Of a DNA stretch of 64,000 bases, positions 3,282 to 62,069 are shown piece after piece. The stretch lies in the IMG/VR virus record IMGVR_UViG_2731957753_000001, positions 1 to 64,000 of that record, one strand, 5' to 3'. Source of the DNA: a virus (taxonomy: Duplodnaviria; Caudoviricetes). The position numbers and the translations under genes were made by a program. The notes below the pieces were generated by a model. It did no database searches and had not been told where the DNA came from. It saw only the letters and a list, made by a program, of their open reading frames with translations. Within the stretch, counting starts at the first letter, position 1, and each line of letters starts with the position of its first letter.

Positions 3282-3310
3282 ATTCTCTCGCGCGAGTCAA
3301 ACCACGAATT
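3282..3310 (-). promoter_or_regulatory. Repeated phage promoter-like motif, copy 1 (upstream of ssb)
   Basis: AATTCG TGGTTTGACTCGCGCGA GAGAAT. Confidence 0.7.
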
Positions 3311-3675
3311 CAGGCCGCAGAATCATCGTCGACCAAGAACCAATCCCCAACCGTCGACGGCTGCAACGCGAACACCTCAACCCGCGGCGCCTCACCATCC
3401 ACCAAGACCGTCCGCCCACAGAGCGATCCGTCCCCGCTCCTGTCTTGGGGCAGGTCGAACACCTCCCAGGCGCCCCAAATCCGCGTGGTGTTCCCGAAAT
3501 AGTGCACGTCCCTGTACGGTCGCAGACTTATGCACTGCTGAGGCCGGTAGATGATCCTGGGAGGCATCGCGGTGAAGTCGTCGAGGTCGCGGCCTGTCGC
3601 GTCGCCCCATTGGAGTTCGACACGGGACTGTGGGTCGAGGCGCCACCAACGCGGCCGTACTGCAAGGTCAGACAT
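3310..3675 (-). CDS. Hypothetical protein (121 aa)
   Basis: ATG at 3675 overlaps the end of the upstream gene. Confidence 0.6.
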   Translation of the reverse strand: MSDLAVRPRWWRLDPQSRVELQWGDATGRDLDDFTAMPPRIIYRPQQCISLRPYRDVHYFGNTTRIWGAWEVFDLPQDRSGDGSLCGRTVLVDGEAPRVEVFALQPSTVGDWFLVDDDSAA

Positions 3676-3877
3676 CCCGGTTCGCCTCCCGCACCTGCTT
3701 AACCGCCATCCGCATAGCCCAACGCCACTCATCGGTATCTGAGTACTGGATCAACTCCACCAGATCGTTGCCCGAATGCCGGAATAAGAACACACGCCAC
3801 AACGTGTGCCCGTGTCCGCAATGGAAACTGCATGTACCGCGCGTCAACTGGCGAACGTCCGCCCGGTATTCACTCAT
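3668..3877 (-). CDS. Hypothetical protein (69 aa)
   Basis: Coupled ORF. Confidence 0.55.
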   Translation of the reverse strand: MSEYRADVRQLTRGTCSFHCGHGHTLWRVFLFRHSGNDLVELIQYSDTDEWRWAMRMAVKQVREANRDV

Positions 3878-4130
3878 CGCGGGCTTCCTTCTCCAACACC
3901 GCACTCCGCGCAACACCGATCGGAGGCAACTGCTGCGACCAACGACCATCAGGACGCTTAGTCACCGGAAACTCACTGCGCGCCCACTCATACGCCCACA
4001 AAGCACGATCAAGACGGGCAGCAGGAGAATTAGAAATATAACCTTTCGGGTGCGGGTCATCCATCATCAACGCTTCAAGAGCGGCATGGAAACCCGAACG
4101 ATCCACCTGAATAGCGCCGGTTTCGGTCAT
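3870..4130 (-). CDS. Hypothetical protein (86 aa), probably leaderless
   Basis: ATG lies 6 nt downstream of the -10-like hexamer of motif copy 2. Confidence 0.65.
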   Translation of the reverse strand: MTETGAIQVDRSGFHAALEALMMDDPHPKGYISNSPAARLDRALWAYEWARSEFPVTKRPDGRWSQQLPPIGVARSAVLEKEARDE

Positions 4131-4136
4131 GAATCA

Positions 4137-4165
4137 ATTTTCCCGCCCGAGTCAAACCACCAAAA
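4137..4165 (-). promoter_or_regulatory. Repeated phage promoter-like motif, copy 2
   Basis: TTTTGG TGGTTTGACTCGGGCGG GAAAAT. Confidence 0.7.
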
Positions 4166-4228
4166 TGGGCGCGAAATGGGAAATGGGCGCGCGTTAAACA
4201 TTCACCAGCATCGACTAGAATACGTTTT

Positions 4229-4381
4229 ATGAGCGACCAGCCCCCGTTATGCCAGAAATGCTACGAACAGCCCGCCGGCGAGGGGCGCATGCTCTGCCCC
4301 GACTGCCGGGAACGCATCAGCGGACGCGCGCAGGACCCGTACGGGGCTTGGTTCGAGGAAGCACGGGCCGCGGGCAGCTGA
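4229..4381 (+). CDS. Small CxxC-x11-CxxC zinc-finger protein (50 aa), leaderless
   Basis: MSDQPPLCQKCYEQPAGEGRMLCPDCRERISGRAQDPYGAWFEEARAAGS; TAGAAT at 4216-4221 is 7 nt before the ATG. Confidence 0.6.
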   Translation: MSDQPPLCQKCYEQPAGEGRMLCPDCRERISGRAQDPYGAWFEEARAAGS

Positions 4382-4392
4382 GCTGGTTTGCG

Positions 4393-4566
4393 TCAGAGTC
4401 TGCCGAGGATGCGGTAGACGGTGTTGCGGCCGAGTCCCATGAGGGTGTGGATTCGGTTGATGGGTACGCCGGCCGCATCGGCTGCGCGGACCAGCTCGTC
4501 GCGTCGTTCGTAGGTGACGCGCCAGGCGTTTAGCTCTGCTTCGGCTTGCTCTGGAGTCCAGGTCAT
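4393..4566 (-). CDS. Small HTH DNA-binding protein (57 aa)
   Basis: RRDELVRAADAAGVPINRIHTLMGLGRNTVYRIL; resembles 35272-35532. Confidence 0.7.
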   Translation of the reverse strand: MTWTPEQAEAELNAWRVTYERRDELVRAADAAGVPINRIHTLMGLGRNTVYRILGRL

Positions 4567-4644
4567 GCTCCAAATGCTACATGTTCCAATCGGGACAACA
4601 AACCACTTGCATGTATCGTTTGGAGCATGTATCGTTTGGAGCAT
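4565..4644. repeat. Operator-like repeats between divergent genes
   Basis: GCATGTATCGTTTGGA at 4609-4624 and 4625-4640; inverted near-copy at 4565-4583 overlapping the HTH start codon. Confidence 0.75.
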
Positions 4645-4679
4645 CAGCAGGCACGAAAACTACAGAGAGTGAGAGCAAG

Positions 4680-4916
4680 ATGGACGAGATTGATGCATTC
4701 TTCGCCGAATTCGACGCAGAGCCCACCATCGAGGACATCGTTTGGGAGACCGCTTTCCACCCGATCATCACCCAGGTAATGCGGAACACCCGGGAACACG
4801 AACTCCGGATGGCACAAGAAGCCAACGCTCGCGGCCCCATGTCCCGCCGGGACAAGCGCCGGGGACCGCGCACATTCCGCGCCGAGAACGCTCGGGTCAC
4901 CTACCACCGGCCCTGA
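4680..4916 (+). CDS. Hypothetical protein (78 aa), acidic N-terminus and basic C-terminus
   Basis: MDEIDAFFAEFDAEP...; followed directly by a terminator. Confidence 0.55.
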   Translation: MDEIDAFFAEFDAEPTIEDIVWETAFHPIITQVMRNTREHELRMAQEANARGPMSRRDKRRGPRTFRAENARVTYHRP

Positions 4917-4944
4917 AACAGCCACCCGAAAGGGTGGCTGTTTT
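4916..4944. terminator. Bidirectional intrinsic terminator
   Basis: AAACAGCCACCC-GAAA-GGGTGGCTGTTT between convergent genes. Confidence 0.85.
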
Positions 4945-6593: not shown

Positions 6594-6622
6594 AGCCTGC
6601 ACCCCCGGTCAAACCACAAACC
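6594..6622 (-). promoter_or_regulatory. Repeated phage promoter-like motif, copy 3 (inside an 8-bp hairpin)
   Basis: GGTTTG TGGTTTGACCGGGGGTG CAGGCT; CCCCCGGT/ACCGGGGG stem. Confidence 0.55.
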
Positions 6623-6642: not shown

Positions 6643-8040
6643 TCAGGCCGCGACCGACTCCGGACCGCTCACCGTTACCCCCAGCGCCTCAGCGACAACC
6701 CCGACCAGATCCCGCGCAGCCGGCGGAGTCACAGCATTACCCGCCATCCGCACCTGCTCCCGCCGATTCCCCAACACCACATAATCGCGCGGGAAATCCA
6801 TCGCCGCAATGATCTCCCGCGGCTCCAACATCCGGAACCGGACATCAGCGATATCCAAAGACGGGCCCATCGCCACACCGTCGGTCTCCCGAGTAGTACG
6901 CGTCGGGATCGGTTCAGCAGTGCTCGTCGCCCGCTCCCGCCACGTACCACCCGCCGGAGTCACCAACCCATGATGCCCACCACCCGCCGTCACCGTGCAC
7001 AACGGCTCAGACACCAAACGATGCTTCGACCCACCACCACGCAACTCCGCCATAAACGCCAACCCCGTCTCATTCCGGGTCGACATAGTCCGCAACGGCC
7101 CATCCACCGGACGAGCCTGCTTCCCCTCACGCCCCTCAACCGGGACCGCAAGAGCATCGTTCGACCAATACTTCTCGATCCCCGACTGAATCCGCGCCAG
7201 CGTCTTCGCCGCCAACGGTTTCGCCCGATCCCCAATCCGAGTCCCCAGCATCGACCAGTCGATAATGTCCGACGCAGGACGCACCGCAGGCTCAACCACC
7301 CGGTTCTGGCACTTCACATTCGGGCACCGGAACACATACTGTGCCCGATACCGCGCCACCGGAGACGACCCCGGCTTGAACACCTGCATCGCCTGCACCG
7401 GGCCACACTCCAGGCAAACCGCCGCCGGACGAGTCACCCGCCGAAGATCCGGGCGACGATCACCCTTCCGCCAAAACACCACATACATGCGGTCCCGAGA
7501 CTGCGGCGCACCCGCCCCGAACAACTGGGCGTGCATCGAGTTCAGGAACACAACCTCATGGTCGTAACCCATCCCGTCCATCGTCGACAGCCACGACCGG
7601 AACAACGTCCCCTTCTCCGGCGACCACTCAGGCGCCCAGTCGATCGCGTCAGCCACGTTCTCGACAATCACTGCCCGATACCCGTGCGCCTCAGCGAACC
7701 TTGGCACATCCCACATCGTTGCCCGCGACCGCTCCGCAGCCTCATCCGGCAGCGGCTCATCAAACAGGGTCGCCGGCTGAAGCTTCTTCGTGCCCTTCGC
7801 CCGAGAATGGTTGGTGCACTCGGGTGACGCCCACAGGATGTCAGTGGTCGGGAAGTAGCGGGGGTCGATCTGCGACAGGTCCGCGCAGATGTGGTCTGCG
7901 TCGGCGTGGTTCGTGTTGTGGGTTTCCACTGCCAGCTTCCAATGGTTCGAAGCCACCCGCACTTCGATGCCGGGAATCTGGACCGCGCCCGTCGATGAAC
8001 CGCCGGCGCCGCAGAACAAATCGGTCAGGGTCAGACTCAC
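6643..8040 (-). CDS. C5-cytosine DNA methyltransferase
   Basis: Motif I DLFCGAGG, motif IV ASPEC, motif VI ENV, motif VIII QSRDR, motif X GNAVTPP. Confidence 0.95.
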   Translation of the reverse strand: MSLTLTDLFCGAGGSSTGAVQIPGIEVRVASNHWKLAVETHNTNHADADHICADLSQIDPRYFPTTDILWASPECTNHSRAKGTKKLQPATLFDEPLPDEAAERSRATMWDVPRFAEAHGYRAVIVENVADAIDWAPEWSPEKGTLFRSWLSTMDGMGYDHEVVFLNSMHAQLFGAGAPQSRDRMYVVFWRKGDRRPDLRRVTRPAAVCLECGPVQAMQVFKPGSSPVARYRAQYVFRCPNVKCQNRVVEPAVRPASDIIDWSMLGTRIGDRAKPLAAKTLARIQSGIEKYWSNDALAVPVEGREGKQARPVDGPLRTMSTRNETGLAFMAELRGGGSKHRLVSEPLCTVTAGGGHHGLVTPAGGTWRERATSTAEPIPTRTTRETDGVAMGPSLDIADVRFRMLEPREIIAAMDFPRDYVVLGNRREQVRMAGNAVTPPAARDLVGVVAEALGVTVSGPESVAA

Positions 8041-9398: not shown

Positions 9399-10495
9399 GC
9401 GGTGGCGCTCCAGTCGGTGAAGTCGATGGCGGGCTGTGCGGGTTCGGCGTCGATGACTTGCATCAGTGGCCGCTGGTGGGCGACTTGACGGTTGAGTTCG
9501 TCGAATGTGGCGTTGAGGTCGGCGCGTTTCCTGTCGCCTGCGGTTGCCGGGGGGCCAGGGGTGGCGTGGGTTGCGGGCCGTGGACGCGCTTTGCCGAGCC
9601 AGGTATGGAATGCGGCGTTCCAGTCGACTTGGAGGCGTCCGTTGGCGAGGGCGTGGTTACGGAACTGATCGGCTTCGTGTTCGAGGTCGACGCCCATGCG
9701 CCCGGCTTTGTGTCGATGTGTGTCGGTTGGCGCCCACTCCTCGGGGATGGGGGCGGGTTCGCGCCTGCGCTGCCGACTGGTTTGCGCTGGGGGTGGCGCG
9801 TCCGGCTCGCCGGGGTCTGCCGCGCGAGCGGTATGAGGTATGTAGGTCTGCTGTATGCGGTCTGCCGTATGCAGGTAGGAAACGGACCGATCCGCATTAC
9901 CAATCGGATTGCCAATCGCATTACCAATCCGATTGGTGTTCTCGACCGGTTCGGCATTACCAATCCGATTACCAATGTGATTACCAATGTGGTTGGTAAT
10001 CCGGTTGGTGTAGCCGTGCTCTTCCAGGTCCGGGCGGGTCATCAACCGGGCCAGGTGCTCACCTGAGATCGGGGACGAGAACGACGAGTACTCGGGGTGC
10101 TCGGCGTGGGCTCGCTTCACCTCGGTCACGACGGCGGCACGCAGGGTGCGGGAGGCTACGGCCCCGTAGGCGCGGACAACGGAGATCCCCATCTTCGGGT
10201 TCCGCAGGAGTTCGTCGCTGCGGATTAGTGCCCGAACCAACGCCTCTTCGGTGTCGGGGTCGAACAGCACGAACCGGGCTTCTTCGAGTTCCGCCGCGGC
10301 TGATTCGATGCGTTCGGGGGTCCAGCCGGCGGCGCGGACACGCAACCGGGTGGGGCGCCAGTCGACGCGACCGCAGTAGGACATTTCGGGGTCGGTGGCG
10401 AGGACGAAGTAGAGGTGCTGTGCGGGTGGAGTGAGGTTGAGGAAGTCGTCGTCTTCCCACATGGACAACTGGAAACGGGCATATTCGCGAGGCAT
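9395..10495 (-). CDS. Putative replication initiator protein
   Basis: N-terminal winged-helix-like region (WEDDDFLNLTPPAQHLYFVL), internal tandem DNA repeats, C-terminal DWNAAFHTWL motif. Confidence 0.75.
   Translation of the reverse strand: MPREYARFQLSMWEDDDFLNLTPPAQHLYFVLATDPEMSYCGRVDWRPTRLRVRAAGWTPERIESAAAELEEARFVLFDPDTEEALVRALIRSDELLRNPKMGISVVRAYGAVASRTLRAAVVTEVKRAHAEHPEYSSFSSPISGEHLARLMTRPDLEEHGYTNRITNHIGNHIGNRIGNAEPVENTNRIGNAIGNPIGNADRSVSYLHTADRIQQTYIPHTARAADPGEPDAPPPAQTSRQRRREPAPIPEEWAPTDTHRHKAGRMGVDLEHEADQFRNHALANGRLQVDWNAAFHTWLGKARPRPATHATPGPPATAGDRKRADLNATFDELNRQVAHQRPLMQVIDAEPAQPAIDFTDWSATA
9846..10003. repeat. Iteron-like tandem repeats inside the initiator gene (putative origin)
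   Basis: 12-mers ATT(A/G)CCAAT(C/G)NN in two blocks of three (9896-9931, 9956-9991), plus two 14-mers GTCTGCYGTATGCR (9846-9873). Confidence 0.75.
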
Positions 10496-11714: not shown

Positions 11715-12440
11715 TTAGGCGGCGGTTTGTTGGCGGCGGGCGGCTGCTCGTTCGCGTTGGCCGCGCATGCATTCGGCGCAGGCCCGGTGTCCGCGCCGCC
11801 CGGTGACGGTGTTTGCTGGGGTGCGGGGATGGTTGTTGACGCACACGGGCCGGTCCTGGACTTTGATGCCGGCCGCTATCCAGTCGGGTTGTGCACGCGG
11901 GTCGTCGATATCGATGCCGTCCCATGCGAGCGGGGGGACGTGTCCCGCTGCGCGGGCGACTTGGATGCTTTTCCGGCTGGGGCCGGGGGTTCCGGACAGG
12001 GCGTTGTACAGGTCGCGGATTTCGGCCCACCGCTGGTAGGTGACGTGTTTGCGGCGGGCGCACAGGTTGAGTCCGCTTACGTCGATTCCGAGCCGGTCGG
12101 CGAGCAGTGTGGTGGACCATCCGATGGCGTTGAGTGCGCGGAGGCGGCGTGCGGCGCCGATGCCGAGGACCCTGTTTTGTTTCGGGTGGGGGTGGTGGGT
12201 GGTGGCTCGGATGGCGGCGGCGAGTTCGACGCGGACGCGTTCGATGGCGCCGATGTCGATGTAGCGGATGCATTGTTTGGTGCATCCTGCGCTGGCGGCG
12301 ATCATCGGATAGTTGATTCCGATGGTGGTGAGTGACCGGATGTGTTCTTGGATTGGGGCGGTGTCGGTGTATACCTGGATGTTGTTGGCTTTCCGGTACC
12401 GGTAGCGTTTCGTTCTGCGGGTGCCTGACGTGATGGTCAT
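11715..12440 (-). CDS. Multi-HTH DNA-binding protein with C-terminal CxxxH...CxxC finger
   Basis: GAARRLRALNAIGWSTTLLADRLGI...PPLAWDGIDIDDP; paralog of the next gene. Confidence 0.75.
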   Translation of the reverse strand: MTITSGTRRTKRYRYRKANNIQVYTDTAPIQEHIRSLTTIGINYPMIAASAGCTKQCIRYIDIGAIERVRVELAAAIRATTHHPHPKQNRVLGIGAARRLRALNAIGWSTTLLADRLGIDVSGLNLCARRKHVTYQRWAEIRDLYNALSGTPGPSRKSIQVARAAGHVPPLAWDGIDIDDPRAQPDWIAAGIKVQDRPVCVNNHPRTPANTVTGRRGHRACAECMRGQRERAAARRQQTAA

Positions 12441-13255
12441 GCCGCCTCCCGCAGGGTTTTATTTCGGGCACGCCTCAACCCGATGTCGGCGGCTTCAGCG
12501 GACACCTGGAGTAGTTCCGCGACACGGGCGGCTGTGTATCCGCGCCGGGCTGCGAGCCGGTACGCGGCGCCCTTCTCTGCCCGGTTGAGCGGCCCAGAAT
12601 CGACACCATCGACGACGCGTTCAATCCGCACCCAGTCCACCCCGTGCGCGGCGTCGGGGTCACCGAAATCGGGGCTACTGTCGGGATGGTCGATGTCGAT
12701 TCCGTCCCACGCCATAGGGGGCGCGTCCCCATTGAGTCGCGCGAGGTACGCCGCTTCATCTGACGAGCCAGGCACATGCGACAGGTCGCGGTAGAGGTCG
12801 GCTACCCGCAGCCAGGTGGCGCCGGCGATGCGATGCTTATTGCAGATATTCGATACCGCGTTGGGGCCGACGCCGAGCAGTGGCGCGATATCCCGATTGG
12901 AATGCCCCAACGCTCGCAGTGCGCGCAACCGTCGCCCGGCGCCGAGAGCAGGCACCCGGAACGATGCCTGATTCGCGGTGGGGACATGGGTAAGCGTCCG
13001 GATGCGTACTGCGCGACTGGTGTAGACGATGTTCTGGTTGCGGTGCCCGATGCGGATGTGCCGGATCGCCATCTGGGAGATTCCCGCTTCGGCGGCGAGC
13101 GCCTGATCGGTGAATCCGAGACCGGAAAGCCATCGCAAATGCTGCTGCAATGGCGTGATATCGGTGTACCCGGAAATTCCGCGGGCTCGCCGGATAGAAC
13201 TGCTCTTGCAGCGAAGGTACGGATCTTGCACTGGGATCTGCGTGTACACGTTCAC
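12437..13255 (-). CDS. Multi-HTH DNA-binding protein with C-terminal sigma-4-like HTH (272 aa)
   Basis: GAGRRLRALRALGHSNRDIAPLLGV...PPMAWDGIDIDHP...GYTAARVAELLQVS; GTG start at 13255. Confidence 0.75.
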   Translation of the reverse strand: MNVYTQIPVQDPYLRCKSSSIRRARGISGYTDITPLQQHLRWLSGLGFTDQALAAEAGISQMAIRHIRIGHRNQNIVYTSRAVRIRTLTHVPTANQASFRVPALGAGRRLRALRALGHSNRDIAPLLGVGPNAVSNICNKHRIAGATWLRVADLYRDLSHVPGSSDEAAYLARLNGDAPPMAWDGIDIDHPDSSPDFGDPDAAHGVDWVRIERVVDGVDSGPLNRAEKGAAYRLAARRGYTAARVAELLQVSAEAADIGLRRARNKTLREAA

Positions 13256-13695
13256 GCGGCTACCCCCAGGTGATGGTTGATGCGGGTCCAGGAGATGCCG
13301 AGCTTTCGGGCGATCTGGTTGCGGTTCCAGCCGTGTTCCGTGTACAGGGCTCGCGCGTATGCGGGTTTGTCTACGGCGGCGACTGTGACGTCTGCACCGG
13401 AGATGATGCGGTCTAGGATGATCGCGTCCACATAGGGTGTGCCGCGGGAGTACTGGTCTATGGCGGTCTCCGGGTCGATCCGGTTTATGGCTGCGGCTAG
13501 GTTTGGGTGCACAAAGCTGGCGCGGCCCTGCCAGATCCGGTTGAGGGTGGTGGAGTGCACTCCGAGCCCGTTGGCGAGACGGTTCGGGACGACGCCTTGG
13601 TTGATGAGGTCGCGGAGTTTGGTTCGGCTCGGTTCGGCGGGCCGGTATCCACGGGCGAGCCAGTAGCGGCTGTTGCCGGCAGTGGTGCCGCTCAT
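13252..13695 (-). CDS. Double-HTH DNA-binding protein (147 aa)
   Basis: NRLANGLGVHSTTLNRIW and GWNRNQIARKLGISWTRI. Confidence 0.7.
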   Translation of the reverse strand: MSGTTAGNSRYWLARGYRPAEPSRTKLRDLINQGVVPNRLANGLGVHSTTLNRIWQGRASFVHPNLAAAINRIDPETAIDQYSRGTPYVDAIILDRIISGADVTVAAVDKPAYARALYTEHGWNRNQIARKLGISWTRINHHLGVAA

Positions 13696-16900: not shown

Positions 16901-16942
16901 GAGGGGTGTTTACCTTTCGGTGTAGTGGCTGTTCTACACCCT

Positions 16943-16971
16943 AGTGTAAACACGGACGCAGGTTACGTCAA
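16943..16971 (-). promoter_or_regulatory. SigA-type early promoter (cro)
   Basis: TTGACG-N17-TACACT. Confidence 0.8.
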
Positions 16972-17158: not shown

Positions 17159-17620
17159 GTGAGCGACACCGACAACGACAGCAGCCCCCCGGCCTCCTAC
17201 AGCTGGATCGACTACGTCAACTCCCTCTGCCACATACACCACCTCACCCTCCACCAATTCACACAGAGAATCGGCGCCAGCGCCTCCGTCAGCACCAAAT
17301 GGAAAGAAGGCGGCACCGTCCGCGCCGGCACCGCCCTCACCATCGCCCGCGAGTTCAACATCCCCTACCAGGAGGTGCTGATCGCGGCGGAACTGGCCGA
17401 ACCCTCGGACTTCGACTACAAGGGCAGTTCGCAAGTCCTCCAGCTCGCGGCACTGCCGAACGACACACTCATCGAGATCTTGAAAGAGCGGTTGATCCCC
17501 GACGAGGAACGCGACCCCACCCTTGCCAAGCCCGCCCCTAAGTCCGGTGATCTGCGGCGCCGGCGGATACCTGTAGAGGAGCCGCCCCGGGTTGCGCGTC
17601 GTCGCACCAACGGGAAATAG
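17159..17620 (+). CDS. Immunity repressor (XRE HTH)
   Basis: FTQRIGASASVSTKWKEGG...ALTIAREFNIPYQEVLIAAEL; divergent from cro. Confidence 0.85.
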   Translation: MSDTDNDSSPPASYSWIDYVNSLCHIHHLTLHQFTQRIGASASVSTKWKEGGTVRAGTALTIAREFNIPYQEVLIAAELAEPSDFDYKGSSQVLQLAALPNDTLIEILKERLIPDEERDPTLAKPAPKSGDLRRRRIPVEEPPRVARRRTNGK

Positions 17621-49466: not shown

Positions 49467-49495
49467 ATGCTATGGGCGCAGGCAAACCACGAATT
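49467..49495 (-). promoter_or_regulatory. Repeated phage promoter-like motif, copy 4
   Basis: AATTCG TGGTTTGCCTGCGCCCA TAGCAT. Confidence 0.7.
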
Positions 49496-50837
49496 ATGAC
49501 ATCACACGCTTAACCAGCCGCGGTTCAACAGGCTCCGGCTCGACCGACAACGGCAGCTCGTTCAACTTGATCTGCCGCCGCCACTTCCGCTCAGCGGTAG
49601 TTAGGAGATAGCGGGCGGAATCGATGCCGTGGTCATTCAACTTGATCGGCTCGTCCTTACCCTTCTCGGTCGCCTTCGTATCCCACACATACCCCGGAAT
49701 CTCTTTGATCAACTCCGGGCAGCGATCGGAGAACTTCAGGCGGCCGGACGCGACAAGCGCGGTCATAGTCCGGATCCCGTACAACACGTCCTTTTTGGCG
49801 GGATGCGTCGGCAGTCCGTCTTGTTTCAACTGGACACGGAAGTCGGCAGCCGATTGGTCGGCGATCACATACCCGCGGAACCCTTCCGGGTTCTCCGGGT
49901 CCTCGCTGGGGTGATGTGCCTTATTGAGCCATTCCCGCAGGCCAGCCGACAACTGGACGTTCGTTTTACGTGCTTCCGCGTTGCTGGCCTTGTACCGCCA
50001 CTCATCCATGCAATACAGGACATCGTCGGAACCGTGCCCGATCATCACAGCGTGAGTCGGGTTGGTGGTGCCGTGGTCGACACCTACACCGAGGATCCAC
50101 CGCATGTCGGGCAACTCCGACCAGGGCACAACATGCTTGTCCGGGTCGAACATGTCGAAGATAGCGCCATCAGCAGCGACCCAGCGCCCGAGGATGTTCC
50201 GCAAATAGAACAAACCCGTGAACTCGGCTTTGATCGCCGCCACATACTCCGGCGCCAGGCTCGGGTTGTCGTCGAGCGTGAAATGCCACGCCCCGAGATT
50301 CATTCCCGACTCGCCGGCGCGGTCGATGAAGTTGACCTTCAAATAGTGGTTCGGGTTGTCCGGGTTCGTCGTCGCCAAACAGCGGGCACCGGGCACGGAC
50401 AGGCGGGCGAGGAGCTGGGTCCAGAAGTTCTCCGGCAACAAGGTCGCTTCGTCCACGAGTGCGAGGCAAGCTGTCAGGCCACGGAGTTTCCCTTCCGCCC
50501 GAACATCCGAGGCGCCGATCAAATGCACGGTCCGCCCGAGGATCACCGCAGTGTTCGACCCGCGCGTGTGATGCACCTCGTGCGCCCACTCACCGAACAC
50601 CATCTCGTCCTGCATCGGCTCGATGATGTTGCGTTCGATGGTCTGCAATGTTCGGCCGACGACAACGATCAACCCTGTGTCGGGGGCGTGCACGATCGCG
50701 TCGTAGAACGCGAGAATGCTCGCGATCGTCTTGCCGCTTCGTACAGCTCCGGCCCAGATGGACACTCGATGACGCCGGGATTCGATGATGCTGACGATCT
50801 GTTTCCGGGATAGCGGCAGTTCGTCGAGGACGCTCAC
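49494..50837 (-). CDS. terL: Terminase large subunit (PBSX-like)
   Basis: GAVRSGKT Walker A, LVDEA Walker B, TTNPDNPNHY, GVDHGTTNP, DHGIDSARY. Confidence 0.95.
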   Translation of the reverse strand: MSVLDELPLSRKQIVSIIESRRHRVSIWAGAVRSGKTIASILAFYDAIVHAPDTGLIVVVGRTLQTIERNIIEPMQDEMVFGEWAHEVHHTRGSNTAVILGRTVHLIGASDVRAEGKLRGLTACLALVDEATLLPENFWTQLLARLSVPGARCLATTNPDNPNHYLKVNFIDRAGESGMNLGAWHFTLDDNPSLAPEYVAAIKAEFTGLFYLRNILGRWVAADGAIFDMFDPDKHVVPWSELPDMRWILGVGVDHGTTNPTHAVMIGHGSDDVLYCMDEWRYKASNAEARKTNVQLSAGLREWLNKAHHPSEDPENPEGFRGYVIADQSAADFRVQLKQDGLPTHPAKKDVLYGIRTMTALVASGRLKFSDRCPELIKEIPGYVWDTKATEKGKDEPIKLNDHGIDSARYLLTTAERKWRRQIKLNELPLSVEPEPVEPRLVKRVMS

Positions 50838-52195: not shown

Positions 52196-52432
52196 TCAGG
52201 CGACCTGCGAGGCCGCCCATTTCAACCATTCGGGTGCATACCCGTGCTTGTGGTGTTCGCCGACCACAGTTACCGGGGTGGATGCGTATCCGAGGCTGCG
52301 CAGGTACTCCCCCGCGGCAGGGTCCTCGGTCACATCGATCTTCCGATAGGTGGCGCCGAGCTGATCTAGCTTCCGGGCGACCGCCTTACACGGTTGACAA
52401 TCTGGGCGGCTATATACAGTTATTTCAAGCAT
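52196..52432 (-). CDS. nrdH: NrdH-like glutaredoxin
   Basis: TVYSRPDCQPCKAV...GYASTPVTVVG. Confidence 0.9.
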   Translation of the reverse strand: MLEITVYSRPDCQPCKAVARKLDQLGATYRKIDVTEDPAAGEYLRSLGYASTPVTVVGEHHKHGYAPEWLKWAASQVA

Positions 52433-53373
52433 CAGGGCAGGCGAATTCCAAGGTCAGGCAGCGGCGGCAACACGAGCGCCGGCAACGGGGGCGGGATATA
52501 GGCGAGGGCTTCGGCCGGCAAGTACTGCTCAACCTCGTCGGGCACGTACTCATGCAGCGGGGTCGGCTCGTACGGCGGCATGCCGTAGAAGTTCGGCAGT
52601 GGGCCTGGTTCCCATGTCGGGATCGGCGCGGCCGGGTATTCGGTGGGCAGCCCGGTCGGGGTCGACTCGGGAAGCACCGGGATCGGTGTCGGCGCCTGCA
52701 CCAGGGTTTCCTCACCCGCGGGGTATTCGTCGGCTTCACCGGGACGGTACGAATGCCAGCCCGACAGCGCACCAACAACACCCTGGACGAAACCAACAGG
52801 GTCACCGAGCGGGTTCGGCGAGTCGCAGGCTGCGTCGAATTCGTGGCAGACGCTCGTGGTGTTCGGGTGGTTCTCGCGCCGCCCCGGCGAACTCACACCC
52901 GGCAGGAACCCGGGCAGAGCATCATAGATACCGCCAGCAGTCCGCGGATCCCCATACACGACAACCTCATCGGCCAGCGCGGCCTCATCCCCCGCGATCT
53001 CCGCACCCAGAGAATGCCCAATCACCTTCACATGACCACCAGGGCACGCGGCGCGGTAGTCGGCGATAGTGTCCCGGAGGATAGCTTTCCCGTCGGCGAC
53101 CGATTCATCCCTCGTGTACGGTCCGGTCGGCCAAACCGAGGACTTGTAGTCCACCGAGACCGTCTGACGCCCCAACGTGGCCTCACGATCCAACTGCCGG
53201 CTCATCAAATTCGGCAGCCCAGCCGTCTCGACCAACCTTTGCCCGTTCCCGCCGACACCGATCGTGACCGGACGACAGTCCGGGGCACCAACAGCGGGCG
53301 TGGCGAACGCAAGCGGCCCGAGCCATACGACACCAGCGGTCACGCATACAGCGGCCGTGAGACGACGAGACAT
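52432..53373 (-). CDS. Secreted cutinase / PE-PPE-like alpha/beta hydrolase with Pro-rich tail
   Basis: Signal peptide, GHSLG nucleophile elbow, CHEFDAACD, GWHSY. Confidence 0.85.
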   Translation of the reverse strand: MSRRLTAAVCVTAGVVWLGPLAFATPAVGAPDCRPVTIGVGGNGQRLVETAGLPNLMSRQLDREATLGRQTVSVDYKSSVWPTGPYTRDESVADGKAILRDTIADYRAACPGGHVKVIGHSLGAEIAGDEAALADEVVVYGDPRTAGGIYDALPGFLPGVSSPGRRENHPNTTSVCHEFDAACDSPNPLGDPVGFVQGVVGALSGWHSYRPGEADEYPAGEETLVQAPTPIPVLPESTPTGLPTEYPAAPIPTWEPGPLPNFYGMPPYEPTPLHEYVPDEVEQYLPAEALAYIPPPLPALVLPPLPDLGIRLP

Positions 53374-55516: not shown

Positions 55517-56191
55517 CTAGGCTGCTGCCCGTTCGGGCGCCTCACTCGCTCGCAGGTCCTCGATGTGGTCGACCAAGCCGGGCGTCAACCGGAACCACTC
55601 CCTGGTATGCCGCGCCGACCGGAACTGTCCGTGGCGCTTCTTCTCCAGCTTCCGCGCGCCGAACTCGATCGCCGGCACTTCATCGTGCACGAGATTCGAA
55701 AGGCGGACGCCCAGGTTGCCCGTGTATCCGATTTTCAGATACGGGCCGAACCGCAGGTAGTAGACGACGCTCTTCCCAAACCCGTGAAACAGATGCGATT
55801 GCGTAAGCCGCCGCCGGTACTCGCGTTCATCACGCTCGAACGAACAGGACACGCACCGCGTGGTCTCACCGAGACTGTCCACCCACAACGTGTCGCGATC
55901 ACCGCATCCAGGACAACTCCACCGCAACCGCTCCGCGTCCGCGGGTACTACCTCGCGGACCTTCTCCTCACGCTCGAACTCGAACGCCCGCAAAGTCTCG
56001 GTAGCGACGTTGAAGTCCCGGATAGCTTTCTGCCAGTGCCAGGTACACAAGCTGACGGACGAGGCGAACGCGTCCGCTGCTGGCACGTCGCAATCAGGCT
56101 GCCCGCAAAGCGCGTGGCCGAAGGCCGACTCTGCGCTCCACTGCCTCCCAAACCCTGCCTTGTAGTGATACGTCGACGATTCGCTAGAAAT
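55517..56191 (-). CDS. Zinc-finger plus GIY-YIG-like (T5orf172/MUG113) protein; start uncertain (ATT 56191 or GTG 56086)
   Basis: VVYYLRFGPYLKIGYTGNLGVRL...E...HGQF...EWF; CxxC ribbon; the frame is open upstream and includes the CGQPDC...CTWH finger. Confidence 0.75.
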   Translation of the reverse strand: MSSESSTYHYKAGFGRQWSAESAFGHALCGQPDCDVPAADAFASSVSLCTWHWQKAIRDFNVATETLRAFEFEREEKVREVVPADAERLRWSCPGCGDRDTLWVDSLGETTRCVSCSFERDEREYRRRLTQSHLFHGFGKSVVYYLRFGPYLKIGYTGNLGVRLSNLVHDEVPAIEFGARKLEKKRHGQFRSARHTREWFRLTPGLVDHIEDLRASEAPERAAA

Positions 56192-56199: not shown

Positions 56200-56252
56200 C
56201 CGTGCTGGTTTGACCTTGCTTCTATTCTCTCGCGCTGGTCAAACCACGAATT
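56200..56252. promoter_or_regulatory. Repeated motif copy 5 (minus) overlapped by an inverted copy (plus) that shares the -10 region
   Basis: Minus: AATTCG TGGTTTGACCAGCGCGA GAGAAT. Plus: TGGTTTGACCTTGCTTC TATTCT. Confidence 0.7.
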
Positions 56253-58171: not shown

Positions 58172-58323
58172 TGCGCCTGTCCCAGCGCGGTCACGAGCAT
58201 CGTTTTCACCAGATCCATTGCCTGTTCTTCATCGAATCCGGCCTGCACGTATGCTTCGTACTGGTCGTACAGCAGGGCTGCGTGCTGGCGGGTGTTCGCA
58301 GCGGGTTCGAAATAGGGGTTCAT
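58168..58323 (-). CDS. Hypothetical protein (51 aa)
   Basis: MNPYFEP...YEAYVQAGFDEEQAMDLV; coupled at both ends. Confidence 0.6.
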   Translation of the reverse strand: MNPYFEPAANTRQHAALLYDQYEAYVQAGFDEEQAMDLVKTMLVTALGQAQ

Positions 58324-58994
58324 TCCAAAACTCCTTCGGGCAAGGGCGCGCCCAGGTCGTACGCGAGTGCTCGGTAGTTTTCAGGCGCCCAGTTCATGCC
58401 GCACGCCAAGCATTCGGCGCTGGACTGGCTGGCTTGCAGCACGTATTTGCGCACCATCTCCCCCGCCCCGTCATCCACCGACAGATACGTTTCACCGCAG
58501 GACGGGCAGGCTGCACGTAGCTCGTAGGTGTGCCGCTGGTCGGGTGCGAGCATGCTGTTGGCGCGCTCTACCCATTGTTCGACGGTGCGGGTCATGCGTT
58601 TCAGGTCCGCCAACTCGTCAGGCGTCCACGGCCAGTCGCACAGCGTGTACAGGCGGGCAACGGTCGGCTGATGTTCGGCACTGTCGACGTTCGGCCACCA
58701 CGAGCGAACAGTGCGGTCGATATCGTCGAGCAGGGAGATCGCGGAAACGTTCCCTGGCGCTGCGGAACCATGCGTGGCCCGCCGAACCGACTCGCTGCCT
58801 TGCTTCTCCCCGAACCGAAGCTCCTGCAACTCCTGGTACAGGCTGTCCAGGATCACATGCTCACGCATAAAATCGTCACGCTCAATCGAATCCGCACGCA
58901 AACCCACCAACAGGTGCACGGCATCGCTGAATGCAGTGCGCGCGCCGGCGACTAGCTCAGGAGTCTCGGTCAATCTCGTCTCCGTTGTCTTCAA
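58320..58994 (-). CDS. Conserved actinophage protein with C-terminal zinc ribbon (possible transcriptional regulator)
   Basis: DSLYQEL...ISLLDDID...CPSCG...CLACGMNW. Confidence 0.75.
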   Translation of the reverse strand: MKTTETRLTETPELVAGARTAFSDAVHLLVGLRADSIERDDFMREHVILDSLYQELQELRFGEKQGSESVRRATHGSAAPGNVSAISLLDDIDRTVRSWWPNVDSAEHQPTVARLYTLCDWPWTPDELADLKRMTRTVEQWVERANSMLAPDQRHTYELRAACPSCGETYLSVDDGAGEMVRKYVLQASQSSAECLACGMNWAPENYRALAYDLGAPLPEGVLE

Positions 58995-60221: not shown

Positions 60222-60487
60222 TCCGGTCCACCGGGCTCCCCTTCCCGAGCCGCACCTGTCAGGAACTCGACAGCCCCAGCGATTTCCTGCCGTTCACTGT
60301 CGGGGATCAACCCACTGCTGTAGTCCGGTGACTGTATGCCCGCGAACCCCTGGATCGCGTCGTGAATGGCAATCAACGCATTCAACTGTGCACCCTGCAC
60401 CTCGAATGTGGAGGGCTGCCCAAACCCTGACCGCAGGTGCAGCAGTTTCGCTATTCTTCGAGCGTTCTCGATCGGCTCCATGTTCAC
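60212..60487 (-). CDS. Hypothetical protein (91 aa)
   Basis: GAGGAG RBS. Confidence 0.6.
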   Translation of the reverse strand: MNMEPIENARRIAKLLHLRSGFGQPSTFEVQGAQLNALIAIHDAIQGFAGIQSPDYSSGLIPDSERQEIAGAVEFLTGAAREGEPGGPDCD

Positions 60488-60612
60488 TCCTCGTCAAAGT
60501 CGACGGCAAGGAGACGAACAGTTCGCGGAGGGCCTTCATCGTCGGAGTGCGGCCATTCTGTCGGCCGACTATTCTCGAATAGATCCACTACCCACCTCCT
60601 TGCCTTAAAACA

Positions 60613-60641
60613 AGAATATGGCGGGAGTCAAACCACGAATT
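60613..60641 (-). promoter_or_regulatory. Repeated phage promoter-like motif, copy 6
   Basis: AATTCG TGGTTTGACTCCCGCCA TATTCT. Confidence 0.72.
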
Positions 60642-60646
60642 CGACG

Positions 60647-60832
60647 CTAATTCTCGCCGCAGAAAAGCCGATGCCCGCGCGTGTACTTGCTCAACTGTTC
60701 ACGAGACAACGACTGCTCGAAATCATCCACTTGTCCGCAGGCTCGACAGAACCAGAACGTCCAACCAAAGTCGTCGACGTAAGCGGTCGCGGGCGGCTCA
60801 TGGTCCAGCAGGAGAACGAAACGGCCGCTCAT
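60647..60832 (-). CDS. Small zinc-binding protein (61 aa)
   Basis: CRACG...H...C; ATGA coupling. Confidence 0.6.
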   Translation of the reverse strand: MSGRFVLLLDHEPPATAYVDDFGWTFWFCRACGQVDDFEQSLSREQLSKYTRGHRLFCGEN

Positions 60833-61263
60833 TCCTCGTCGGTATCCTCGGTGTAGATGTCTGCCAGGTCAGCAAATATCGCGTCGTACAGCCCGATTTC
60901 GACCCGGTACCCGTCGCACTGCTCGCACTCATGATCCAAGCCCGCGAGACCATTCCGGGTCGCGATCATCTGGCGCACAACCGACACCCAACGAAGCACA
61001 CGCGCAGGATCATGAGCGGCGATATGTTCCGCGACCCCGATATCCCGCGGTCCTCCACCGCTGTCCCCCTCCCAAATCGGGTCCGCAGCACCATTCACAG
61101 TCACCAAGTCGCAGAATTCATCAACCCGCCACCGTTCGGGCTCCCACGGCGGCCGCTTCTCAGGCCACTTCGTAACCGGTCGCGGCAAGTCCGTCGCAGC
61201 CCGCGCGAGCCGCTCGTCACGCTCCAGGCCGGCCAACAAGCGGGATATCGCATCCGCGCTCAT
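60829..61263 (-). CDS. DUF6221-like protein
   Basis: LLAGLERDERLARAA...HIAAHDPARVLR. Confidence 0.75.
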   Translation of the reverse strand: MSADAISRLLAGLERDERLARAATDLPRPVTKWPEKRPPWEPERWRVDEFCDLVTVNGAADPIWEGDSGGGPRDIGVAEHIAAHDPARVLRWVSVVRQMIATRNGLAGLDHECEQCDGYRVEIGLYDAIFADLADIYTEDTDEE

Positions 61264-61631
61264 GCTGCCCACTCCCACTCCGGATCGAAATCCTCATGCG
61301 CGCGCCACACCCGAGCCAACGGCCGCAGATCATCGTGGAATAGGGTCTCGTCGAGTGTGTCGTCGTCGATGTAGTGCGCCAGCCTCAGGCTCGCGATCAT
61401 GCAACGCAGGGCACGGCACATCTGAAGCGCCCGCGCCGGGTCGTGGCGGGCGATGTGCTCGGCCTCCTTCGGCCACGTGTGCTTGACGACCAGCGTGGAA
61501 TCGGCCGATCGAACCTCGGGCGCATCGGCGGACCACTGGGCAGTAGTCGGCGTGCCTGCCAGAAAGGCCGCACGGGCGATCCGCTCGTCCTCGCCGAGCC
61601 GGGCCTCGATGAACTCCTCGATGGAGGTCAT
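61260..61631 (-). CDS. DUF6221-like protein (paralog)
   Basis: FIEARLGEDERIARAA...HIARHDPARAL...LARVWRAHEDFDPEW. Confidence 0.8.
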   Translation of the reverse strand: MTSIEEFIEARLGEDERIARAAFLAGTPTTAQWSADAPEVRSADSTLVVKHTWPKEAEHIARHDPARALQMCRALRCMIASLRLAHYIDDDTLDETLFHDDLRPLARVWRAHEDFDPEWEWAA

Positions 61632-61894
61632 TTCCGCACGGCCTTCACTGCTTCAGTGACCCCAACCCATATGCCTGCTGCGATAAACAACCCGACAACC
61701 ACCCCGACGGCCTGCGCGGGCCACAACCAGATAGGCATAGCGACCCGCGTCCACGACCAGTCGAGGTTATCGGTGTATTTCAGCAACGCGAAAATGGCCG
61801 TGAGGACGATGTCGACCCTGAGTATTTTCAGCGAGAGGTTCCCGATAGACTTTGCGAGTTTCTTGTTGGGGCTGATTTCTGTTGTTGCGCTCAT
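61628..61894 (-). CDS. Membrane protein (88 aa)
   Basis: LTAIFALLKYTDNLDWSWTRVAMPIW. Confidence 0.7.
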   Translation of the reverse strand: MSATTEISPNKKLAKSIGNLSLKILRVDIVLTAIFALLKYTDNLDWSWTRVAMPIWLWPAQAVGVVVGLFIAAGIWVGVTEAVKAVRK

Positions 61895-62019
61895 TGATTC
61901 ACTTTCTCCAGTATGTCGTCTACCTCGGAAACCAACGCGCAATAGTCCGCGAGCCCAATCACGTATCCTGCGAGCCGCAATTCCATCCACGACATGGCGA
62001 TTGGTCGATCGTCTTCCAT
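61891..62019 (-). CDS. Hypothetical protein (42 aa)
   Basis: GAGGAG RBS; ATGA coupling. Confidence 0.5.
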   Translation of the reverse strand: MEDDRPIAMSWMELRLAGYVIGLADYCALVSEVDDILEKVNQ

Positions 62020-62040
62020 CAGGTCTCCTCGAATAGATCA

Positions 62041-62069
62041 AACGTATTAGGGGTGTCAAACCACCAATT
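62041..62069 (-). promoter_or_regulatory. Repeated phage promoter-like motif, copy 7
   Basis: AATTGG TGGTTTGACACCCCTAA TACGTT. Confidence 0.72.

What the first reader, a model, noticed from the sequence alone, without database searches (positions are those of the whole stretch)
3282..62069. Novel promoter class: AATTCG-TGGTTTGAC-N8-nAnnnT, 7 copies in fixed register
Seen: seven minus-strand intergenic sites (3282, 4137, 6594, 49467, 56224, 60613, 62041), mostly right after a stop codon. All have TGGTTTG(A/C)C exactly 8 nt upstream of a hexamer with invariant A2 and T6 (GAGAAT, GAAAAT, CAGGCT, TAGCAT, GAGAAT, TATTCT, TACGTT). In copy 2 an ATG lies 6 nt after the hexamer, the leaderless spacing. 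The TTGAC sits at about -25, not -35. Known: mycobacterial PafBC activates promoters through a -26 element (sigma adaptation). Inference: a phage activator reprogrammes SigA-RNAP to a -26-like element to drive middle and some late genes.
Basis: partly seen in the sequence, partly recalled or inferred. Interest (0 to 1): 0.82.

Follow-up and report, generated by a model that had tools for sequence, protein, structure and literature searches.

The report
Phage-specific promoters lacking a -35 element
A roughly 89-kb phage genome assembled as its own contigs in a Nocardia-type bacterial assembly carries ten copies of an unusual promoter, a normal host -10 element plus a phage-only 9-base box one DNA turn too close for the usual -35, which is conserved in related phages and probably needs a still-unidentified phage protein to work.

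Summary
All seven sites are confirmed. I added three same-strand copies and one inverted copy.

- **Location:** all ten same-strand copies lie in non-coding gaps, oriented with the genes.
- **Geometry:** each has (G)TGGTTTG(A/C)C, then exactly 8 nt, then a hexamer with invariant A2 and T6.
- **Leaderless starts:** in three copies the first ATG of a real ORF lies 6 nt after the hexamer, which marks the hexamer as a true -10.
- **Host chromosome:** the 7.35-Mb host has no such site and no N8 spacing peak. It does have a PafBC-type regulon, TGTC(A/G)GTG-N8-TANNNT, with the same geometry.
- **Relatives:** all eleven related Nocardia phage sequences examined keep box and -10, ten of them at N8 (one reads N9), while the spacer sequence drifts.
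- **Not the immunity operator:** a separate palindrome, TACAC-N4-GTGTA, overlaps the canonical early promoter.
- **Phage proteins:** no WYL, PafC-type HTH, sigma-70, MotA or AsiA homolog is encoded.

Best reading (0.6): hybrid promoters without a -35, read by host SigA-RNAP with a phage-encoded adaptor, driving middle and late genes. The factor and the timing are inferred. Candidates are a three-HTH early protein, a WhiB-like protein and a DUF7341 zinc-ribbon protein.

No transcription start-site data exist.

The parts
3282..3310 (-). Box promoter: AATTCG-TGGTTTGAC-N8-GAGAAT. It starts immediately after the TGA stop of ORF 3310-3732 and drives the SSB gene 2766-3227, with a 5'UTR of about 48 nt.
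   Evidence: SSB PF00436 E 9.7e-26
4137..4165 (-). Box promoter: TTTTGG-TGGTTTGAC-N8-GAAAAT-N6-ATG. It is leaderless for ORF 3870-4130. It restarts minus-strand transcription after the hairpin at 4915-4944 and a small plus-strand insert.
6594..6622 (-). Box promoter: TGGTTTGAC-N8-CAGGCT. It lies 21 nt after the stop of the gene at 6643-8040 (C5-methyltransferase assigned by eye) and drives a Dam-like methyltransferase (GTG 6561 to 6043), followed by a Metallophos gene.
49467..49495 (-). Box promoter: AATTCG-TGGTTTGCC-N8-TAGCAT, overlapping the TAA stop of the large terminase gene. It drives the conserved 84-aa ORF 49182-49436 (phrog_1738) and downstream genes up to portal. The site is orthologous in all 10 Nocardia relatives.
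56224..56252 (-). Box promoter: AATTCG-TGGTTTGAC-N8-GAGAAT, overlapping the TAA stop of the MazG-like gene. It drives the MUG113/T5orf172 gene 55517-56086 with a 5'UTR of about 130 nt. An orthologous site is present in relative L240.
56206..56228 (+). Inverted second box: TGGTTTGAC-N23-GTCAAACCA together with the 56246 site. At N23 the A2/T6 rule is met automatically on both strands. There is no plus-strand gene downstream. Relative L240 lacks it. Its role is unexplained.
60613..60641 (-). Box promoter: AATTCG-TGGTTTGAC-N8-TATTCT. It is followed by AAGGAGG, a GTG and a 34-aa ORF, and heads the operon that contains the DUF7341 gene. Relatives have a box site 1-1.5 kb upstream of their own DUF7341 gene.
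62041..62069 (-). Box promoter: AATTGG-TGGTTTGAC-N8-TACGTT. It is followed by GAGGAG, an ATG and a 42-aa ORF, then two DUF6221 genes. An orthologous site in L240 has the same TACGTT hexamer.
16935..16971 (-). Canonical SigA-type early promoter, TTGACG-17-TACACT, overlapped by the palindrome TACAC-N4-GTGTA. This is the probable immunity operator. It is a different element from the box and heads the early operon.
17159..17620 (+). CI-like repressor gene, divergent from the Cro-like gene 16679-16900(-).
   Evidence: phrog_5301 E 9.9e-10; HTH hits
12437..13150 (-). Candidate trans-factor gene in the early operon: a 237-aa protein (P0013) with three helix-turn-helix modules. It belongs to phrog_1590 and to a large family, and orthologs occur in relatives G003, G004 and G005.
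13252..13695 (-). Adjacent 147-aa HTH protein that matches the same phrog_1590 profile, so a likely paralog and possible partner of P0013.
58320..58973 (-). Candidate trans-factor gene: a DUF7341 plus DUF7340 protein with a C-terminal four-Cys ribbon. It is conserved in all relatives and always lies downstream of a box promoter.

Best explanation
The sites are a phage-specific class of hybrid promoters.

**Architecture**
- A SigA-type -10 hexamer (nAnnnT at -12 to -7) is paired with the box (G)TGGTTTG(A/C)C at -30/-29 to -21.
- No -35 element sits at a canonical distance.
- The TTGAC-like part of the box lies one helical turn too close for sigma region 4 to use it as a -35.

**Proposed mechanism**
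- Host RNAP-SigA is proposed to fire these promoters only when a phage-encoded DNA-binding adaptor or activator occupies the box and replaces or repositions the sigma region 4 contact.
- This would work like PafBC 'sigma adaptation' or T4 MotA/AsiA, but with unrelated proteins.

**Proposed cascade**
- The canonical, operator-controlled early promoter at 16971-16943 expresses the early operon, which includes the multi-HTH proteins at 12437-13695.
- The factor then switches on the ten box promoters. These drive replication and accessory genes (SSB, Dam, an antirepressor-like gene) and the region leading into lysis, packaging and virion genes.

**Shown:** motif, geometry, orientation, intergenic placement, leaderless starts, conservation in relatives, absence from the host, and a distinct immunity operator.

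**Inferred:** dependence on a phage factor, its identity, and the timing.
For: 1. **Enrichment and specificity.**
   - 9 copies against 0.89 expected in the window.
   - 8 exact copies on the 76-kb C25 and 1 on the 13-kb C26, against 5 in the remaining 7.35 Mb.
   - The best host score with the site matrix (17.1) is below every phage site, which score 19.8 or more.
   - None of 266 other genomes of the genus has more than 2 copies.
2. **Fixed register.**
   - All 10 same-strand sites have N8 and then A2/T6.
   - The intragenic copy and the host copies do not.
3. **Leaderless starts.**
   - An ATG lies exactly 6 nt after the hexamer at 4159, C26:12645 and C25:74153.
   - In each case it is the first start codon of its ORF.
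   - The 74124 ORF has an ANT domain.
   - Leaderless genes carrying an ordinary -10 are documented in mycobacteria (PMC4633059).
   - The other sites are followed within 15-50 nt by an RBS and a start codon.
4. **Not a canonical promoter.**
   - The host shows the expected TTGAC-N18/19-TANNNT peak and no N8 peak.
   - GTTTG[AC]C-N8-TANNNT occurs 0 times in the host.
   - The -10 hexamers are weak: T1 is missing in 5 of 10, and no TGn extension is present.
5. **Same geometry as the host PafBC regulon.**
   - The host has 20 copies of TGTC[AG]GTG-N8-TANNNT with a sharp N8 peak.
   - The PafBC element lies at -23 to -28 and these promoters have no -35 (PMC8635444).
6. **Phylogenetic footprint.**
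   - Box and TAnnnT are kept after the terminase gene in all 10 Nocardia relatives while the spacer sequence varies. Spacing is N8 in nine and N9 in one, L005/G003.
   - Three of three orthologous sites are kept in closer relative L240; the invariant columns are GTGGTTTGAC, A2 and T6.
   - A box site lies upstream of the DUF7341 operon in four relatives.
7. **Not the immunity operator.**
   - No box lies in the CI/Cro region.
   - The palindrome TACAC-N4-GTGTA overlaps the canonical early promoter and a second promoter at C25:74893, and occurs 0 times in the host.
8. **Functional logic.** Site 4159 restarts the minus strand after a strong hairpin and an opposite-strand insert.
Against: - No transcription start-site or expression data exist; no sequencing run was listed.
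- No activator is identified. The phage has no WYL, HTH_PafC, sigma-70 region 2 or 4, MotA or AsiA match.
- Fold searches on two candidates gave only generic Xre-type HTH matches, or nothing.
- The box is asymmetric, oriented with transcription and placed right after stop codons. This also fits Cluster A 'stoperator' repressor sites (PMC9262239).
- The inverted pair at 56206/56246 looks more like an operator than a promoter.
- Relatives have only 2-3 sites each. The expansion to ten, and the AATTCG extension, are peculiar to this phage.
- A host factor cannot be fully excluded, because the box is shared by phages from different Nocardia species.
Confidence: 0.6

Rival explanations
1. The hexamers are self-sufficient promoters, and the box is the binding site of a phage repressor. 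It would be an operator or stoperator that silences many lytic transcription units in the lysogen, as L5 gp71 does in Cluster A mycobacteriophages.
For: - The box is asymmetric, oriented with transcription in all 10 same-strand copies, lies in short intergenic gaps and mostly follows a stop codon directly. This matches the published description of stoperators (PMC9262239).
- An inverted pair exists at 56206/56246.
- An antirepressor-like gene is controlled by the 74153 site.
Against: - No box lies at the CI/Cro region or at the canonical early promoter. That promoter carries a different palindrome.
- The -10 hexamers are weak and have no -35 or TGn partner, so they are unlikely to be strong unaided.
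- The exact N8 register between box and -10 is kept across relatives while the spacer sequence drifts. A promoter element requires this; a roadblock site does not.
Confidence: 0.15
2. A host protein reads the box, for example one of the host's 11 WYL-domain regulators or another sigma-adapting factor. The phage would be borrowing a host stress signal to time its lytic genes.
For: - The geometry is identical to the host PafBC regulon.
- The host encodes PafB/PafC plus 9 further WYL proteins.
- The box is conserved in phages found in different Nocardia species.
- No recognisable activator is encoded by the phage.
Against: - There is not one box-N8-TANNNT site in 7.35 Mb of host DNA, and none of 266 congeneric genomes has more than 2. 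A host regulator would be expected to have host targets, at least its own gene.
- The box sequence differs from the PafBC consensus, and the phage has no PafBC-type box.
Confidence: 0.12
3. An unrecognised, highly divergent phage-encoded sigma-like factor reads both the box and the hexamer.
For: - The motif is highly conserved and unlike host promoters.
- Weak sigma-70 region 4-type HTH hits, below threshold, occur in P0013 and in the 175-aa HTH protein next to the terminase gene.
- A few P0013 family members weakly match an ECF sigma model.
Against: - No sigma-70 region 2 or region 4 match at E of 1 or below on the phage contigs.
- Invariant A2/T6 is the signature of group-1 sigma -10 recognition.
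- From general knowledge, no sigma-70 family member uses a gap as short as the 8 nt between box and -10 hexamer.
- The P0013 model is three Xre-type HTH modules, not a sigma fold.
Confidence: 0.08

Closest known systems
PafBC-dependent hybrid promoters ('sigma adaptation') of mycobacteria and other actinobacteria (PMC8635444)
   Same: - Both have a canonical -10 and no -35.
- Both have a specific element about 9 nt long, separated from the -10 by exactly 8 nt, covering roughly -29 to -21.
- The same host genome uses this geometry for 20 PafBC-type sites.
   Different: - The box sequence is TGGTTTGAC rather than TGTC(A/G)GTG.
- The sites occur only on the phage.
- The phage encodes no WYL or PafC-type HTH protein.
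- Dependence on an activator is not demonstrated here.
T4 middle promoters (MotA box plus sigma-70 -10; MotA/AsiA sigma appropriation). From general knowledge; the PafBC paper mentions related phage factors only in general terms.
   Same: A phage-specific box replaces the -35 while the host primary sigma still reads the -10. In T4 the factor is an early gene product, which matches the cascade proposed here.
   Different: The T4 box is centred near -30, here near -25. No MotA or AsiA homolog is detectable. The host is an actinobacterium.
Repressor-stoperator sites of Cluster A mycobacteriophages such as L5 and Bxb1 (PMC9262239)
   Same: Both are many copies of a 13-15-bp asymmetric motif, in short intergenic gaps, in one orientation relative to transcription.
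   Different: - Here every copy has a -10 hexamer in fixed register, and three have leaderless starts.
- No copy lies at the early lytic promoter.
- A separate palindromic operator is present there.
Canonical SigA early promoters of actinophages (PMC9262239)
   Same: Both use a TANNNT-type -10, presumably read by host SigA.
   Different: There is no -35 at 16-19 nt. The TTGAC-like part of the box lies about 10 bp too close. The host shows no such spacing class.

Membership tests
PafBC-type -26 hybrid promoter (sigma adaptation) | Canonical -10 (TANNNT, with A2 and T6 critical) | tested here: met
   A2 and T6 are invariant in 10 of 10 same-strand sites. T1 is present in 5 of 10.
PafBC-type -26 hybrid promoter (sigma adaptation) | No -35 element at canonical spacing | tested here: met
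   None of the box sites was returned by the sigma-70-type scan. No consistent hexamer at 15-19 nt is seen by inspection.
PafBC-type -26 hybrid promoter (sigma adaptation) | Specific element at about -23 to -28, 8 nt upstream of the -10 | tested here: met
   The box lies at -29 to -21 with N8 in every copy. N8 is kept in ten of eleven relatives and reads N9 in one. The host PafBC boxes also peak at N8.
PafBC-type -26 hybrid promoter (sigma adaptation) | PafBC consensus sequence TGTC(A/G)GTG with the GTC triplet read by PafB | tested here: not met
   There are 0 such boxes on the phage and 20 in the host. The phage box is TGGTTTGAC.
PafBC-type -26 hybrid promoter (sigma adaptation) | Activation by a WYL-domain PafB/PafC heterodimer | tested here: not met
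   There is no WYL (PF13280) or HTH_PafC (PF19187) match on C25 or C26. The host has both. Whether host PafBC acts on these sites cannot be tested in silico.
T4 MotA/AsiA middle promoters | MotA and AsiA proteins encoded by the phage | tested here: not met
   PF09114 and PF09010 give no match at E of 1 or below in the whole assembly. Very remote homologs could be missed.
Cluster A stoperator/operator sites | Asymmetric motif, many copies, intergenic, one orientation relative to transcription | tested here: met
Cluster A stoperator/operator sites | One copy is the true operator overlapping the early lytic promoter next to the immunity functions | tested here: not met
   No box lies between 6616 and 37868. 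The early promoter at 16971-16943 carries TACAC-N4-GTGTA instead.
Cluster A stoperator/operator sites | Bound by the immunity repressor | not testable with these tools
   This needs EMSA or ChIP with the CI-like protein encoded at 17159-17620.
Canonical SigA (-35/-10) promoter | TTGACA-like hexamer 16-19 nt upstream of the -10 | tested here: not met
   The TTGAC of the box lies 8 nt from the hexamer. The host spacing histogram peaks at N18/19 only.

The most novel reading that the evidence does not exclude
This Nocardia phage lineage has evolved its own sigma-adaptation system, unrelated to WYL proteins. A phage protein would insert between sigma-A region 4 and DNA at a -25 box, converging on the geometry of the host's PafBC promoters. 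The protein could be the early three-HTH Xre-like protein of phrog_1590, alone or with its adjacent paralog or the phage WhiB-like sigma-A4 binder. If so, this would be the first defined middle/late promoter class and regulator for an actinophage group.
Probability: 0.3. Interest if true: 0.85.

Novelty: new variant of a known kind. Interest (0 to 1): 0.64.

Why it matters
How actinophages switch on their middle and late genes is largely unknown. A recent review states that few late promoters have been characterised and that their regulation needs study (PMC9262239).

This report gives a sharply defined promoter class that is conserved across relatives. It has a testable architecture (box, N8, -10), ten natural variants in one genome and orthologous sites in eleven related phages. 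It also gives a short list of candidate factors.

If a phage protein adapts SigA to a -25 box, sigma adaptation would no longer be a peculiarity of the WYL protein PafBC. It would be a general solution reached independently by a virus. That would also supply strong, orthogonal, inducible promoters for Nocardia and possibly other mycolic-acid actinobacteria.

Tried and rejected
- **Near relatives.** Megablast of two window stretches against 50,697 phage records found no match. One distant-mode call failed on a size limit.
- **Motif in literature.** Full-text searches for TGGTTTGAC or GGTTTGAC returned only unrelated primer sequences. Searches on phiC31 or actinophage promoter classes returned nothing relevant.
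- **Motif in public contigs.** Exact-pattern scans of viral contigs and metagenome contigs gave only single matches. No high-GC contig had several copies. I treat these as chance.
- **Sequencing runs.** None was listed, and no RNA holder was listed.
- **De novo k-mer search in four relatives.** This gave no exact repeated box family. Only a relaxed box with fixed spacing revealed their 2-3 sites each.
- **Gordonia phage VanLee.** This is among the closest cultured relatives (portal about 48% identical; Morgana is nearest at about 50%). It has no box sites.
- **Fold searches.**
  - The P0013 model (pLDDT 96) has no global PDB match. Only the N-terminal Xre-type HTH matches, at Z about 7.
  - The DUF7341 model (pLDDT 73) has no meaningful match.
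  - PDB sequence searches were empty.
  - None of this identifies the factor.
- **Rejected readings.**
  - SigF-type (GTTT-N16-GGGTA), ECF-type and sigma-54-type readings: spacing and -10 do not fit (my own knowledge).
  - A phage RNA polymerase: the two long unassigned ORFs tested (658 and 689 aa) match only HNH or unknown families, not a polymerase. The other large ORFs were called tape measure and tail proteins by homology to relatives.
  - A dispersed repeat or mobile element: conservation stops at about -36 and -7.
- **Exact-protein lookup.** A lookup for the 116-kb contig holding an identical DUF7341 protein returned nothing.

Full report
**1. Context**

The window is the first 64 kb of contig C25 (76,323 bp, GC 0.62) of a 7.44-Mb, 67%-GC assembly.

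- The contig is a siphovirus-type phage genome. Almost all of its genes are on the minus strand.
- Portal relatives at 58-71% identity all lie in Nocardia assemblies, several on contigs of 87-95 kb.
- The closest cultured phages are Gordonia phages of about 85 kb, with portal about 50% identical.
- Contig C26 (12,977 bp, GC 0.635) carries one motif copy and is part of the same element. Together the two contigs make about 89 kb.
- The sequence runs unbroken across the integrase region, so the assembled form is not integrated there (inference).

Annotation by Pfam and PHROGs gives the following:

| Feature | Coordinates |
|---|---|
| CI-like repressor | 17159-17620 (+) |
| Cro-like protein | 16679-16900 (-) |
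| Canonical promoter TTGACG-17-TACACT | 16971-16943 (-) |
| Early operon: YqaJ exonuclease, DnaQ-like exonuclease, two HTH proteins, HNH proteins, RepA-like initiator with internal repeats, methyltransferases, SSB | downstream of that promoter |
| LysB-like cutinase | 52432-53373 |
| Large terminase | 49494-50837 |
| Portal | 45089-46702 |
| Tape measure | 30044-35068 |

**2. The observation**

TGGTTTGMC occurs nine times in the window against 0.89 expected.

I found four more copies.

- **C26:12645(-).** TGGTTTGAC-N8-GAGAAT-N6-ATG.
- **C25:74153(-).** AATTCG-TGGTTTTAC-N8-TAGAAT-N6-ATG. It lies at the end of an 820-bp non-coding region and heads the long minus-strand block. Its leaderless ORF (233 aa) has a KilAC antirepressor domain.
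- **56206(+).** This inverted box forms TGGTTTGAC-N23-GTCAAACCA with the 56246 site. With 23 nt between the boxes, the A2 and T6 of one strand automatically supply T6 and A2 of the other. The plus-strand 'hexamer' is therefore not independent evidence.
- **37868(-).** This intragenic copy is a non-site, as are the six copies of the 9-mer elsewhere in the host. All of them lack A2/T6.

A position matrix built from the sites finds nothing else on the phage above background. The best host score is below every phage site. Conservation is confined to about -36 to -7, so these are short sites and not a dispersed repeat.

All ten same-strand copies are non-coding and co-oriented with the genes. With at least 83% of the contig coding by my crude calls, that placement is very unlikely by chance.

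**3. Why these are promoters**

- **Leaderless starts.** In three sites an ATG lies exactly 6 nt after the hexamer. In each it is the first start codon of an ORF of 86, 116 or 233 aa, and there is no room for a ribosome-binding site. Leaderless genes with an ordinary -10 hexamer upstream of the start-codon transcription start site are documented in mycobacteria (PMC4633059).
- **Leadered starts.** Six other sites are followed by a start codon. At four the start lies 15-26 nt from the predicted transcription start site and has a good Shine-Dalgarno (GAGGAG, AAGGAGG, AGGAGG, GGAG). The SSB gene has a leader of about 48 nt, and one site has a leader of about 130 nt.
- **Operon logic.** Site 4159 sits just downstream of a 13-bp-stem hairpin (4915-4944) and a small opposite-strand insert. 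A restart of minus-strand transcription is needed at that point.

**4. Why they are not ordinary promoters**

With the hexamer at -12 to -7, the box lies at -29 to -21. Its TTGAC is about 10 bp closer to the -10 than a -35 element would be.

The host chromosome shows the expected TTGAC-N18/19-TANNNT peak and no N8 peak. GTTTG[AC]C-N8-TANNNT occurs zero times in 7.35 Mb.

The hexamers are weak. Five of ten lack T1, and none has a TGn extension. An additional positive contact is therefore needed.

The same host does use exactly this geometry for another box. TGTC[AG]GTG-N8-TANNNT occurs 20 times with a sharp N8 peak; other spacings give 0-4. That is the PafBC regulon motif. The PafBC paper describes hybrid promoters that lack a -35 and carry a -26 element spanning -23 to -28. 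These promoters are read because PafBC inserts between SigA region 4 and DNA (PMC8635444).

The phage has none of those boxes, and the host has none of the phage boxes. The two systems are orthogonal in sequence and identical in layout.

**5. Conservation**

I ran it, and spacing is conserved.

- **After the terminase gene.** The intergenic gap after the large terminase gene is orthologous in all ten Nocardia relatives. It reads (C/G/T)GGTTTGCC-N8-TA(C/G)GAT. The spacer sequence differs between phages and its length is fixed. One relative (L005/G003) has N9.
- **Upstream of the DUF7341 operon.** Four relatives also carry a box-N8-TAnnCT site 1-1.5 kb upstream of their DUF7341 gene, as does this phage at 60635.
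- **Closer relative L240.** A 12.9-kb contig whose DUF7341 protein is 75% identical has three perfect TGGTTTGAC-N8-hexamer sites, orthologous to 62063, 60635 and 56246. Across the six sequences the invariant columns are GTGGTTTGAC, one spacer C, A2 and T6. The AATTCG extension and the inverted box are not conserved there.
- **Outside the lineage.** VanLee has no such sites. None of 266 other genomes of the genus has more than two copies of the strict pattern, which is similar to the reversed-pattern control.

The architecture is therefore a trait of this phage lineage. This member has expanded it from about 3 copies to 10.

**6. Not the immunity operator**

The canonical early promoter is overlapped by the palindrome TACAC-N4-GTGTA. 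That palindrome recurs over a second SigA-like promoter at C25:74893 and is absent from the host. There is no box anywhere in the CI/Cro region. This weakens the stoperator-type rival, although the orientation and stop-codon placement of the boxes do resemble stoperators (PMC9262239).

**7. Who reads the box**

The phage contigs give no match to WYL, HTH_PafC, sigma-70 region 2 or 4, MotA or AsiA. No ORF is large enough or similar enough to be an RNA polymerase.

Three conserved candidates remain.

- **Two adjacent early-operon HTH proteins, 13252-13695 and 12437-13150.**
  - Both match phrog_1590.
  - The second (P0013) belongs to a family with 3,921 representatives.
  - It folds with pLDDT 96 into three helix-turn-helix modules. 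The first is an Xre/controller-protein type, at Z about 7.
  - It is the only candidate transcribed from the canonical early promoter upstream of all box sites, which suits a cascade.
- **A divergent WhiB-like protein at C25:67357-67770.** It has four conserved Cys and a GVWGG turn, and is conserved in four relatives. WhiB-like proteins bind sigma-A region 4 (PMC13013590).
- **A DUF7341 plus DUF7340 protein with a four-Cys ribbon at 58320-58973.** It is conserved in all relatives and always lies downstream of a box promoter. Its model is mediocre and has no fold match.

None of these is demonstrated to act on the box.

**8. Verdict**

| Claim | My probability |
|---|---|
| The sites are real promoters | about 0.85 |
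| They are a phage-specific class without a -35 that needs a phage-encoded adaptor or activator | about 0.6 |

In relatives the conserved sites lie upstream of the DUF7341 operon, after the MazG-like gene and after the terminase gene. That placement points to middle/late control. In this phage the class also heads replication and accessory genes.

The concept has precedents in PafBC and in T4 MotA/AsiA. The box, its strict -25 position in a phage and the absence of any known adaptor family are new. I class it as a new variant of a known kind.

It is not independent evidence.

Noticed in passing
window 9900-9990 (-) and L156:9016-9036 (C25:73016-73036): ATTGGTAAT recurs five times with a 12-nt period inside the RepA-like initiator gene (phrog_3171). 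The perfect palindrome ATTACCAAT-CGG-ATTGGTAAT lies in a distant intergenic region. The word occurs 7 times against 0.07 expected. These are probably iterons.
   Followed up: partly
window 16935-16948 and L156:10893-10906 (C25:74893-74906): The palindrome TACAC-N4-GTGTA overlaps the -10 of the canonical early promoter and a second SigA-like promoter (TATACT -10) heading the plus-strand block. It occurs 0 times in the host. It is the likely operator of the CI-like repressor.
   Followed up: partly
window 56206-56246: Two boxes face each other (TGGTTTGAC-N23-GTCAAACCA) and share one A/T core. The plus-strand one would fire antisense into the MazG-like gene. The closer relative L240 lacks it. Function is unexplained.
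   Followed up: partly
window 4915-4944: A 13-bp-stem hairpin with T-runs on both sides lies between converging minus-strand and plus-strand genes. It is a probable bidirectional terminator just upstream of the 4159 promoter.
   Followed up: no
window 60590-60601 and 62024-62035: The 12-mer GATCTATTCGAG is shared downstream of the 60635 and 62063 promoters. TATTC(A/G)(A/G)G-like words also follow sites 3304, 4159 and 6616 at variable distance. It is not conserved in L240.
   Followed up: no
C25 and C26 of the assembly; contigs behind L005, L006, L007, L008: The phage is assembled as its own contigs, unbroken across the integrase region. Several Nocardia assemblies hold related phages as separate contigs of 87-95 kb. 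This hints at extrachromonomal or excised forms.
   Followed up: no
window 12437-13150 (-), protein P0013: This 237-aa protein has three HTH modules, is modelled at pLDDT 96 and has no global match in the PDB. It belongs to a large, unnamed actinobacterial and phage family (3,921 representatives at E of 1e-3 or below).
   Followed up: partly
host contigs, for example C17:315759-316927: The host has adjacent PafB/PafC genes, nine further WYL proteins and 20 exact TGTC(A/G)GTG-N8-TANNNT sites. This Nocardia-type host therefore has a clear PafBC-type regulon.
   Followed up: partly
L157:5998-7164 (-): A 388-aa protein with an N-terminal Xre-type HTH and an unassigned C-terminal part lies next to an S-adenosyl methyltransferase (PF04672) in the accessory region of C26. 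It is present in only one relative.
   Followed up: no
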